A stretch of DNA of 64,000 nt from Candidatus Eiseniibacteriota bacterium (GTDB taxonomy: Bacteria > Eisenbacteria > RBG-16-71-46 > CAIMUX01 > VGJL01): NCBI GenBank assembly GCA_034679345.1, contig JAXDAY010000028.1:232665-296664 (forward strand), in the 5' to 3' direction. This document shows, piece by piece, positions 25,674 to 28,797 of the stretch. Made by a program: the position numbers and the translations under genes. The notes beneath the pieces are model-generated. The model did no database searches. It was not told where the DNA came from and saw only the letters and a list, made by a program, of their open reading frames with translations. Each line of letters begins with the position of its first letter. The first letter of the stretch is position 1.

Positions 25674-26192
25674 CTAGCGACGGCGCCACAGCTGGCGCAT
25701 CAATCCCACGCCGATCGCCAGGGCGCCGATGATGCCGGCGGTCGCCAGAGGGCTTGCGGTCATCGGCATCGTCCCGGAGGCCGTGGTCGCCTGCTCGCCC
25801 GCGGCATCGCCCGACGGGGGAGCGGCCTCCGTGCTGCCATCGAGCGACTGCGACATCGGAGCCGGGCTCGAGCCGGTCGTGGCAAGCGTGACGCTCGAGA
25901 GATGGAACGTCCCGGGCTCGGGGATCTCGTACTCCACACGGACCTGGTCGCCGGTCTTCACCGTCGCGGGCACGTTGCTCGTCGCATCCCGTATGAAGAC
26001 CATCTGATCGCCGCCAACGATCTGGATGACCAGTGAAGTCGGAGTCAACGACTCGACGATGCCCATGACGGTGCTCGGCGCCTCGGTCAGGGGGTTGGCA
26101 GTTGGATCCTCCTGGCCCGACTGCGCCGAGGCTCCGAATGCGAGGGCCAGGATGAGCGCGCCGGCCATGAGGATGGTTGTATTCCGGTTCAT
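25674..26192 (-). CDS. Secreted sortase-substrate candidate (signal peptide, small beta domain, Ser/Thr/Ala-rich linker, PLATAG + TM + RRR tail)
   Basis: N-terminal signal MNRNTTILMAGALILALAFGASA. C-terminus ...SPLATAGIIGALAIGVGLMRQLWRRR is tripartite (motif, hydrophobic, basic). Paralogous to the 28168-28797 protein. Confidence 0.65.
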   Translation of the reverse strand: MNRNTTILMAGALILALAFGASAQSGQEDPTANPLTEAPSTVMGIVESLTPTSLVIQIVGGDQMVFIRDATSNVPATVKTGDQVRVEYEIPEPGTFHLSSVTLATTGSSPAPMSQSLDGSTEAAPPSGDAAGEQATTASGTMPMTASPLATAGIIGALAIGVGLMRQLWRRR

Positions 26193-26570
26193 TGGATGGC
26201 CTCCTTGCTTGAGGGAGGGGCGCCCGCCCGATCCCCACCATGGAGGTCTCGCCGGCGCCGCCCCCGGGTATCCCTCACGGCAAGTCCGGTGCCATCACGA
26301 CCTCCCGTTTCGGATCGAATGCAACCTCATGAGGGATCGAGCGTTCTTCCTGCGTGACGTGAAATCGTCGAGATCATTCGGTTGCGGATGCTTTGTAAAC
26401 TTTGCCTGCGATTGGAGAGAACTTCACTCGACCGGAGCATGCTCGGGCGCGGAAATCCACAGATCGACCAGTCTTGCTTGGAGCGAATGGTGGCATTGAT
26501 CTTGATGGACCTAATGGGAGAATCGACGCGGGTTGCGCGCGTCTCGGGAGAGCGAAACCTGGGAATCCAT

Positions 26571-27164
26571 ATGAAGGCGGTTCGAAGAACGCTGTCGTCC
26601 CCCTGGATCGAGCGGACGCTCTATGTTCTGGGGAGCGTCTTGCTCGGAGCGTGGCTCGCGGTCCAGGTCGATGCGCGGCTCTACTATGCGCGACATCACG
26701 AACTGTTGGTGGCATCGAGGAGCTTGCCGGCTTCAGCGGTGCCTGACTCGGCGGCCCCCCGATCTGTGATCGGGCTGATCGAGATCCCCAGACTTGGGCT
26801 CTCGTCCGTCGTGGCGGAGGGCACCGACGCGATCAGCCTCTTCCGCGCCGTCGGACACCTGCCGGGAACGCCTTTCCCGGGGCGGCCAGGCAACGTGGTG
26901 CTGGCGGGCCATCGCGACACTTATTTTCGCCCGCTCGCGGCCATCGCCGAGGACGACACCATCCGCATCACGACCCCTTACGGACGGTATGCCTACCAGG
27001 TCACCGGCACGCAGATCGTCCCGCCCAGCAGGACGGATGTGCTCGCGGCGTCGCCCTCTCCGATGCTCACCCTTGTGACCTGCTATCCGTTCCGGTACGT
27101 GGGCCGAGCCCCGCTGCGGTTCATCGTTCAGGCAGCGGAGATCCCGGTCCGATCGGGTCGGTGA
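26571..27164 (+). CDS. Sortase family transpeptidase
   Basis: N-terminal TM anchor. GLIEIPRLGL, VLAGHRDTYF (catalytic His), MLTLVTCYPF (TLxTC catalytic Cys) and RFIV (conserved Arg) align with SrtA-type sortases. Confidence 0.8.
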   Translation: MKAVRRTLSSPWIERTLYVLGSVLLGAWLAVQVDARLYYARHHELLVASRSLPASAVPDSAAPRSVIGLIEIPRLGLSSVVAEGTDAISLFRAVGHLPGTPFPGRPGNVVLAGHRDTYFRPLAAIAEDDTIRITTPYGRYAYQVTGTQIVPPSRTDVLAASPSPMLTLVTCYPFRYVGRAPLRFIVQAAEIPVRSGR

Positions 27165-27894
27165 GACTCATGGGGCCGTTCGGACTCTGGGCCCCGGTTG
27201 TGTTGGCCAGCCCCGGCGGATCCTCCCCAGCGACCGCATCCATCCGATCGCGACAGCGGGGACAGAATGAGGTCATCTGCTCGCAGATCGACACCCGTCC
27301 TCGGGCATCCTGCATCAGGCATCCGGCGGCCTCGCAGTGTTCCAGCCCGAGCGTGTGGCCGATCTCGTGCACGGCGATCTTCGATAGGCGGGCCCGGGCT
27401 CCAGCGGATCCGGCCGCGCCGCGAAGACACCGGAACTTCGAAACCACGCCGACGGGGCGCGTGTAGGAAGCCAACCCGACGAGTCCCCAGTCCGCGTTCG
27501 AGCCGCGCGTGGTCGAGATGTCGCGCGCCGTCACGCCGAGAATCCGATCTCCATCTATCGGGAGAAGCGGCTCAAGAAAGTCGAGAAGCTTCTCCGCGCG
27601 AAAGCGGCCTCGCGGCGGGTAGTAGGCGCTGGCAGGCAAGGGTCGCGGAGCGAGAATCCGAACGACGGCGCCGAGCTCGGCGCCCAGCGCCTGGCCGACA
27701 GCGTCAAGGTCCTCCGCGGAGAGTCCATCGCCGAGCGGCTGCAGATAGACCACGACTCCATCTGAAGGCGCGGCCGCGGACATCCCGGAATTCACGCTCG
27801 ATGCGGCAACCGCTCCCAGCGGCAAGCACAAGGCGAGGATCGCGTGCAGGAGGATCGCCCGCAGGACGAAGCGCGCCGAGCCCGACCCTTCCAC
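27121..27894 (-). CDS. Secreted archaemetzincin-like zinc metalloprotease (peptidase M54-like)
   Basis: Signal peptide. HEIGHTLGLEHCEAAGCLM...CEQMTSFCPRC matches the archaemetzincin HExxHxxGxxHCx4CxMx(n)CxxC signature. Convergent 44-bp overlap with the sortase 3' end. Confidence 0.6.
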   Translation of the reverse strand: MEGSGSARFVLRAILLHAILALCLPLGAVAASSVNSGMSAAAPSDGVVVYLQPLGDGLSAEDLDAVGQALGAELGAVVRILAPRPLPASAYYPPRGRFRAEKLLDFLEPLLPIDGDRILGVTARDISTTRGSNADWGLVGLASYTRPVGVVSKFRCLRGAAGSAGARARLSKIAVHEIGHTLGLEHCEAAGCLMQDARGRVSICEQMTSFCPRCRDRMDAVAGEDPPGLANTTGAQSPNGPMSLTDPIGPGSPLPER

Positions 27895-28167
27895 GCCTCT
27901 CCCTTCGCGCCGGAGCTACCGGCGCCTCCGCGCTTCCCCACATCAGGCGCGTCTGGTGGACCCGCGATACTTCCGCTTGGAGTCCAGGCTGAGTCCCGAC
28001 GCATCGAACCGCACCCAGCACGAGCGATGCGGTTCTCATGCGTGATTCTACGTCACGATGCGCAGAATCAACAAACTTCCCGCGCCGATCGCCGTCGCGG
28101 AACGCGTCCGCGGGATCGAATAAAGCCCGCAAGACGCCGCAGCGCCGGCGCCCGCCTGCGGCAACGA

Positions 28168-28797
28168 CTAGCGCTTCTTCGCCGAACGCCGGGCCAGCCG
28201 CCGGACTCCGAAAGCCGCGCCGACGAGTATGATCCCGGCGACCGCCACAATGGGCATCGCAGTCGCGGTCGCCGGCAACTCCTCCTGCGCTTCCGCCACT
28301 CCCGGCGCCCCCTGCGATTCGGTTCCGGGCGCCATCGAGGCCAGATCCCTCGCCGACCCTTGCGCGACCGGCGCGAACCCGGTGGCGGGAAGAGACATCG
28401 CATACGCTTGGCGGGCCTGCTCTTCCTCGCTCATCCGTTGCGAGAGATTCAAGGTCTGGACCGCCTTCGCGAGATCCGTGCCTCCCTCGATCCTGTCGTA
28501 GCGCACCCGGACCGGATCGCCCGGGAGCATCGCGGCTCCATAGGAGTTCAGAGGATCCAGCGCGAAGACGCGGGACCGGCCGTCGGGGTCGGTGATCTCC
28601 AGCCTGTTCGCCCTCGAGCTCACGACCGTCCCGATCGCGGACTGATCCCCCGAGATGGACAAGCTGCTGCCCGGGGCGACGGCGTTCGAGGAAGATTGGG
28701 ACTCCACCTGCGCGGCCGTTCCCGAGGGAGCGCAAAGCGTCAGACTCAACGACAACAGACAGATCGTGCACAAAGTGGACAGCCTTACGGAAGGCAT
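28168..28797 (-). CDS. Secreted sortase-substrate candidate (paralog; LPATAT + TM + basic tail)
   Basis: Signal peptide MPSVRLSTLCTICLLSLSLTLCAP. Conserved small domain (GDPVRVRYDRIEGG). Internal LPATG. C-terminus ELPATATAMPIVAVAGIILVGAAFGVRRLARRSAKKR. Confidence 0.65.
   Translation of the reverse strand: MPSVRLSTLCTICLLSLSLTLCAPSGTAAQVESQSSSNAVAPGSSLSISGDQSAIGTVVSSRANRLEITDPDGRSRVFALDPLNSYGAAMLPGDPVRVRYDRIEGGTDLAKAVQTLNLSQRMSEEEQARQAYAMSLPATGFAPVAQGSARDLASMAPGTESQGAPGVAEAQEELPATATAMPIVAVAGIILVGAAFGVRRLARRSAKKR

What the first reader, a model, noticed from the sequence alone, without database searches (positions are those of the whole stretch)
25674..28797. Sortase gene flanked by two paralogous secreted proteins with LPATAT / PLATAG-type tripartite sorting signals, in a diderm genome
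The 26571-27164 product carries the full sortase catalytic triad context: VLAGHRD (His), LTLVTCYPF (Cys) and RFIV (Arg), plus an N-terminal membrane anchor. Two divergently arranged genes lie within 1.2 kb on either side. Both encode paralogous secreted proteins with an N-terminal signal peptide, a shared small beta-rich domain (GDxVRVxY...E.G) and a Ser/Ala/Thr-rich linker. Each C-terminus is motif-hydrophobic-basic: PLATAG-IIGALAIGVGLM-RQLWRRR and LPATAT-AMPIVAVAGIILVGAAFGV-RRLARRSAKKR. That is the classic cell-wall sorting signal layout. The rest of the window encodes TolC, RND, Wza, Wzy and Lgt, so the organism has an outer membrane. Sortase systems in diderms are rare and poorly characterised. 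The LPATAT motif resembles the LP[QK]T[AS]T motif of the proteobacterial dedicated sortase system, but here there are two small substrates of unknown function rather than one VWA protein. This could be an undescribed surface or periplasmic anchoring system.
Basis: partly seen in the sequence, partly recalled or inferred. Interest (0 to 1): 0.85.

Follow-up and report, generated by a model that had tools for sequence, protein, structure and literature searches.

The report
Class-D-like sortase with two anchored substrates
An outer-membrane-bearing bacterium encodes a sortase next to two small secreted proteins carrying its cleavage-and-anchoring tag; the same kind of system is common in Acidobacteriota genomes, yet I found no study of it.

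Summary

**What is confirmed**
- 26571-27164(+) is a sortase: Pfam 2.4e-28, with His114, Cys171 and Arg183 invariant.
- Both flanking proteins have a signal peptide, a homologous OB-fold (DUF5666-like) domain, a disordered linker and a motif/TM/basic tail.
- The window encodes a TolC-like outer-membrane factor, AcrB, Wza, Wzz and Wzy.

**Corrections**
- The motif in the 25674-26192 protein is MPMTAS, not PLATAG.
- Only that gene is divergent from the sortase.
- An unnoticed secreted archaemetzincin-like M54 peptidase (27121-27894) lies between the sortase and the second substrate.

**Classification**
- The enzyme is closest to class D sortases, which recognise LPxTA. It is not the proteobacterial GN sortase.
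- It belongs to a large clade: at least 592 loci in species-representative genomes, almost all Acidobacteriota among the 80 fetched.
- In 70 of 82 loci examined, an adjacent gene ends in LPxTAS-x-[LM]P + TM + basic tail.
- At least 108 of the 150 best OB-family cluster representatives carry the same tail.

**Verdict**
- This is a genuine dedicated sortase-substrate system, but one instance of a widespread, database-annotated and apparently uncharacterised diderm variant.
- The attachment target is inferred only. Peptidoglycan meso-diaminopimelate is the most likely.
- Interest is moderate.

The parts
25674..26192 (-). subA: 172-aa sortase substrate. Signal peptide 26121-26192, OB domain 25884-26075, linker, then sorting signal.
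   Evidence: ORF list. An OB-family HMM built without window sequences scores it 65.6 bits. AlphaFold2 pLDDT is about 96 for residues 40-103. It has no close homologue in the 5.8-billion-sequence database.
25752..25769 (-). subA sorting motif MPMTAS; predicted cleavage between Thr145 and Ala146.
   Evidence: It aligns with LPATAT and LPGTAT. MPxTAS occurs in 22 of 108 anchored OB-family representatives. Three of 72 sortase-adjacent tails have Met at position 1.
25677..25751 (-). subA membrane segment PLATAGIIGALAIGVGLM followed by the basic tail RQLWRRR.
   Evidence: Read from the sequence. AlphaFold2 predicts a helix at residues 148-171.
26571..27164 (+). Class-D-like sortase, 197 aa. N-terminal TM anchor 26616-26669; His114 26910-26912; Cys171 27081-27083; Arg183 27117-27119.
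   Evidence: Pfam Sortase 2.4e-28. NCBIfam NF058671 133.5 bits and class_D 127.5 bits. Catalytic triad invariant. PDB 2LN7 at 3.2e-18.
27121..27894 (-). Secreted archaemetzincin-like (M54) zinc peptidase, 257 aa. HEIGHTLGLEHC 27334-27369, CLM 27313-27321, CPRC 27253-27264. Possibly linked to the system.
   Evidence: NCBIfam archmetzin 1.9e-26 (93 bits, below the 145 cut-off); Pfam Peptidase_M54 32.9 bits against 24.4. The sortase/M54/subB order is conserved in L001 and in a JGI contig. It is 63% identical to the L001 copy. It is absent from the 80 GTDB loci.
28168..28797 (-). subB: 209-aa sortase substrate. Signal peptide 28708-28797, OB domain 28453-28650, short helix, disordered linker, then sorting signal.
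   Evidence: Pfam Gram_pos_anchor 20.1 bits against a cut-off of 20. OB HMM 67.3 bits. AlphaFold2 pLDDT about 90 for residues 50-115. Orthologues P0126, P0127 and P0128 keep the LP[AG]TA[ST] tail.
28261..28278 (-). subB sorting motif LPATAT; predicted cleavage between Thr177 and Ala178. Followed by AMP, matching the extended consensus LPxTA[ST]-x-[LM]-P.
   Evidence: Consensus derived from 72 sortase-adjacent tails. Coordinates.
28171..28260 (-). subB membrane segment AMPIVAVAGIILVGAAFGV followed by the basic tail RRLARRSAKKR.
   Evidence: Read from the sequence. AlphaFold2 predicts a helix at residues 184-208.

Best explanation
The locus is a dedicated sortase system of the class-D-like clade that is common in Acidobacteriota and allied outer-membrane-bearing phyla.

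**Shown here**
- The enzyme is an N-terminally membrane-anchored cysteine transpeptidase with an intact His-Cys-Arg triad.
- Two neighbouring genes encode Sec-exported small OB-fold (DUF5666-like) proteins.
- Their C-termini carry the clade's extended signal [LM]-P-x-T-A-[ST]-x-[LM]-[P/A], then a membrane helix and an Arg/Lys tail.

**Inferred mechanism**
1. After export, the C-terminal helix holds each precursor in the inner membrane with the motif on the periplasmic side.
2. Cys171 attacks the Thr-Ala bond (LPAT|AT, MPMT|AS) and forms a thioacyl intermediate.
3. An amine resolves the intermediate. The most likely amine is the meso-diaminopimelate side chain of lipid II or peptidoglycan, which I recall as the acceptor reported for the Bacillus anthracis class D enzyme SrtC.
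4. The result is an OB domain covalently tethered to the wall inside the periplasm on a 40-60-residue flexible linker.

**Speculative**
- The secreted M54 metallopeptidase encoded between the sortase and subB may trim or release the tethered proteins.
For: **Enzyme**
- Sortase identity and catalytic triad.
- Class D affinity: all 22 aligned family members match the two class D NCBIfam models at E<=1e-30 and no other class reaches that level. The best PDB relatives are 2LN7 and 4D70.
- Class D ('sortase D subfamily 4') enzymes are reported to recognise LPXTA and to sit next to their substrate (PMC3617157).

**Pairing with the tail**
- 70 of 82 loci have an LPxTAS + TM + basic ORF.
- 71 of the 72 pattern matches among 6633 ORFs lie upstream of the sortase on the same strand.
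- Both window tails fit the extended consensus.
- subB orthologues in three other metagenome contigs keep LP[AG]TA[ST].

**Substrate family**
- 263 cluster representatives match the profile at E<=1e-3.
- Of the 150 best, 108 match a tail pattern ([LM]PxT[AG][STG] in 97 of them), and most of the 8 pattern-negative entries flagged 'TM only' show an LPxT-type motif on inspection.
- The domain alone is significant in 142 of 146 tail-trimmed hits.
- OB-type substrates sit next to the sortase in other loci too: L010, L029, L065, L079, L080.

**Envelope**
- The outer-membrane machinery is shown.
Against: - No experiment shows cleavage or attachment for any member of this clade. I found no paper on it.
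- The window sortase falls just below both class D cut-offs: 133.5 against 140, and 127.5 against 165.
- subA deviates from the consensus (Met at position 1, Ala at position 9).
- subA has no close homologue. The protein at its position in L001 is an OB protein without any anchor.
- The peptidoglycan acceptor is inferred only by analogy with Bacillus class D enzymes.
- The M54 link rests on synteny in three related contigs (sortase 67-70% identical), which could reflect shared ancestry alone.
- The organism's phylum was not determined.
Confidence: 0.75

Rival explanations
1. The sortase attaches its substrates to an acceptor other than peptidoglycan. Candidates are a lipid amine, a lipopolysaccharide or exopolysaccharide component, or a lysine of a partner protein. 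This would give outer-membrane or surface display, or protein-protein ligation.
For: - In 47 of 80 related loci, a VWA protein without an anchor sits between the substrate gene and the sortase. It could be a partner or acceptor.
- The window carries Wza, Wzz and Wzy polysaccharide export genes.
- The long disordered linkers resemble wall-spanning spacers.
Against: - No VWA gene is present in the window.
- The OB family has no conserved lysine or pilin-like motif.
- The polysaccharide genes are about 20 kb away.
- From my own knowledge, the one class D enzyme studied for its acceptor (B. anthracis SrtC) uses diaminopimelate.
Confidence: 0.15
2. The enzyme acts only as a processing protease. It cuts off the membrane anchor and releases the OB proteins as soluble periplasmic or secreted proteins, with water as the nucleophile.
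For: - From my own knowledge, sortases hydrolyse their substrates slowly in vitro when no nucleophile is present.
- A counterpart OB protein in L001 exists without any anchor, so the domain can function untethered.
Against: - The signal is strongly conserved beyond the scissile bond (x-[LM]-P).
- From my own knowledge, all characterised sortases act as transpeptidases.
- A plain signal-peptide-only protein would achieve the same result at lower cost.
Confidence: 0.07
3. This is a member of the proteobacterial dedicated 'GN' (class 6) sortase system.
For: - Motif resemblance: LPATAT against LP[QK]T[AS]T.
- TIGR03784 matches at 5.7e-26.
- The P0126 tail matches the TIGR03788 tail weakly (E=0.12).
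Against: - TIGR03784 scores 91.2 bits against a cut-off of 158.25, below both class D models.
- There is no VWA target in the window.
- Nearly all of the 80 best relatives are in Acidobacteriota, not Proteobacteria.
Confidence: 0.02
4. The C-terminal segments are ordinary membrane anchors and their proximity to the sortase is coincidental.
For: subA is an orphan with a non-canonical first residue.
Against: - 71 of 72 tail matches among 6633 ORFs lie next to a sortase.
- The motif is kept across more than 100 clusters at 50% identity despite unrelated linkers.
Confidence: 0.01

Closest known systems
Class D sortases of Bacillota (B. anthracis SrtC, PDB 2LN7; C. perfringens SrtD, 4D70; B. cellulosilyticus 'sortase D subfamily 4'; NCBIfam NF033746 and NF058671)
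   Same: - They are the best-scoring profiles and the best solved relatives.
- Both have the TLxTCYPF...AP.R[FY]I active-site region.
- Both use an LPxTA-type motif with cleavage after Thr.
- In both, the enzyme is often encoded next to its substrate (PMC3617157).
   Different: - The host has an outer membrane.
- Scores fall below the curated cut-offs: 133.5 against 140, and 127.5 against 165.
- The signal is LPxTA[ST]-x-[LM]-P rather than LPxTATN, and NF058670 reaches only 15 bits against a cut-off of 32.
- The substrates are small OB-fold proteins, not enzymes or spore proteins.
The acidobacterial sortase operon found here: LPxTAS substrate, then a TIGR03436 VWA protein, then a class-D-like sortase (loci L002-L081)
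   Same: - Same sortase clade: 41-61% identity over the best-matching segment, with 'TLVTCYPF'.
- Same extended sorting signal.
- A few loci (L010, L029, L065, L079, L080) also use OB/DUF5666-type substrates.
   Different: - The window lacks both the VWA gene and the commonest substrate domain ('LPAGTYxFKL' type; 57 of 80 loci).
- The window's substrates are on the opposite strand.
- An M54 peptidase is inserted, and there are two substrates.
Proteobacterial dedicated 'GN' sortase (TIGR03784) with its VWA target (TIGR03788) (Haft 2011, PMC3237569)
   Same: - A sortase in a diderm, encoded next to its only target or targets.
- An LPxT[AS]T-like motif.
   Different: - The profile score is far below the cut-off.
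- The target here is not a VWA protein.
- The taxonomic range differs.
CusF/SilF-like periplasmic OB domains (PDB 2L55, 8BWV)
   Different: No conserved Met, His or Trp metal ligands occur in the family. The resemblance is one of fold only.

Membership tests
Sortase superfamily (Pfam PF04203 / peptidase C60) | Profile match above the gathering score | tested here: met
   98.8 bits against a cut-off of 26.6, E=2.4e-28. TIGR01076 scores 68.3 against 39.35.
Sortase superfamily (Pfam PF04203 / peptidase C60) | Catalytic His, Cys (TLxTC) and Arg present and alignable | tested here: met
   H114, C171 and R183 are invariant in a 22-sequence alignment. They align to 2LN7.
Sortase superfamily (Pfam PF04203 / peptidase C60) | Transpeptidation of a C-terminal sorting signal | not testable with these tools
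   Needs a peptide cleavage or ligation assay, or in vivo mass spectrometry.
Class D sortase (NCBIfam NF033746; NF058671 LPxTATN-specific) | Score at or above the curated cut-off | tested here: not met
   NF033746 scores 127.5 against 165; NF058671 scores 133.5 against 140. A relative from L005 passes NF058671 at 153.2. These are still the best-scoring classes for all 22 relatives.
Class D sortase (NCBIfam NF033746; NF058671 LPxTATN-specific) | Substrates carry an LPxTA-type motif and are often adjacent | tested here: met
   LPATAT and MPMTAS lie within 1 kb of the sortase. The class description is from PMC3617157.
Class D sortase (NCBIfam NF033746; NF058671 LPxTATN-specific) | Cognate signal matches the LPxTATN domain model NF058670 | tested here: not met
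   15.0 bits for subB and no hit for subA, against a cut-off of 32.
Class D sortase (NCBIfam NF033746; NF058671 LPxTATN-specific) | Attachment to the meso-diaminopimelate of peptidoglycan | not testable with these tools
   Needs muropeptide mass spectrometry.
Proteobacterial GN (class 6) dedicated sortase system (TIGR03784 + TIGR03788) | Sortase scores above the TIGR03784 cut-off | tested here: not met
   91.2 bits against 158.25.
Proteobacterial GN (class 6) dedicated sortase system (TIGR03784 + TIGR03788) | Adjacent VWA-domain target carrying the sorting signal | tested here: not met
   No VWA homologue exists anywhere in the window. The substrates are OB-fold proteins.
LPXTG-type cell-wall sorting signal (PF00746 / TIGR01167) | Tripartite tail of motif, hydrophobic helix and basic residues, plus an N-terminal signal peptide | tested here: met
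   subB: PF00746 scores 20.1 against 20, and TIGR01167 scores 16.2 against 15.9 on the isolated tail. subA fits by alignment and by the clade consensus only. Signal peptides were read by eye; no SignalP was available.
DUF5666 (PF18914) OB-like domain | Profile match above the gathering score | tested here: not met
   subA E=0.34; subB has no hit. However, 15 of 64 family members match, the best at 3.6e-08, and the fold is OB. The window proteins are distant relatives, not formal members.
Archaemetzincin / peptidase M54 (neighbouring gene 27121-27894) | HExxHxxGx3Cx4CxM...CxxC signature and profile match | tested here: inconclusive
   The signature is present (HEIGHTLGLEHCEAAGCLM...CPRC). Pfam M54 scores 32.9 against 24.4 but covers only the C-terminal 50 residues. 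NCBIfam archmetzin scores 93 against 145.

The most novel reading that the evidence does not exclude
The diderm clade is a sortase class of its own, with its own extended signal [LM]PxTA[ST]-x-[LM]P. It covalently tethers small periplasmic proteins to peptidoglycan or to another envelope polymer. To my knowledge, this mode of envelope protein anchoring has not been demonstrated in any outer-membrane-bearing bacterium. In this lineage it is coupled to a secreted archaemetzincin that trims or releases the tethered OB proteins.
Probability: 0.3. Interest if true: 0.7.

Novelty: new variant of a known kind. Interest (0 to 1): 0.45.

Why it matters
Sortases are textbook Gram-positive enzymes, and what they do behind an outer membrane is essentially unknown.

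- **Scale.** The class-D-like clade with a conserved LPxTAS-x-LP signal is found in hundreds of species-representative genomes, almost all Acidobacteriota among the 80 fetched. Acidobacteriota is, to my knowledge, a dominant soil phylum. The literature I could search contains no study of it.
- **Model system.** This locus is compact: one sortase, two ~170-210-residue OB-fold substrates and one neighbouring protease. It could be reconstituted to identify the acceptor.
- **If the acceptor is peptidoglycan,** this would be a sortase-made protein-wall link in diderms, alongside the Lpp-type and L,D-transpeptidase-made links.
- **Practical use.** The enzyme would also add an LPxTA[ST]-specific tool for protein ligation.
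- **Limitation.** The window itself adds a lineage-specific variant, not the discovery of the clade.

Tried and rejected
- **Proteobacterial GN sortase reading.** Rejected on profile score and on the absence of a VWA target.
- **'PLATAG' as the subA motif.** Rejected. Alignments and the clade consensus point to MPMTAS.
- **Metal-chaperone function for the OB domains.** The CusF/SilB-like fold suggested it. Not supported, because no conserved Met, His or Trp ligands exist.
- **Pilus-type polymerisation.** No conserved Lys or pilin motif.
- **Word-indexed homologue searches.** These gave almost nothing: one hit for subB and none for subA. Only the exhaustive profile search revealed the family.
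- **Context look-ups for P0001, P0127 and P0130.** They gave no record, or contigs under 2 kb.
- **Cluster look-up.** It gave no organism names, so the phylum of the window is undetermined.
- **Foldseek against AFDB.** Unavailable.
- **Promoter and terminator scan.** Not above chance.
- **Rfam.** No hit in the window.
- **Literature searches.** Six searches aimed at diderm or acidobacterial sortases found no paper on acidobacterial sortases. Two more searches located the Bacillus LPXTA paper and Haft's papers.
- **M54 as a general partner of the clade.** Rejected. It is absent from all 80 GTDB loci.

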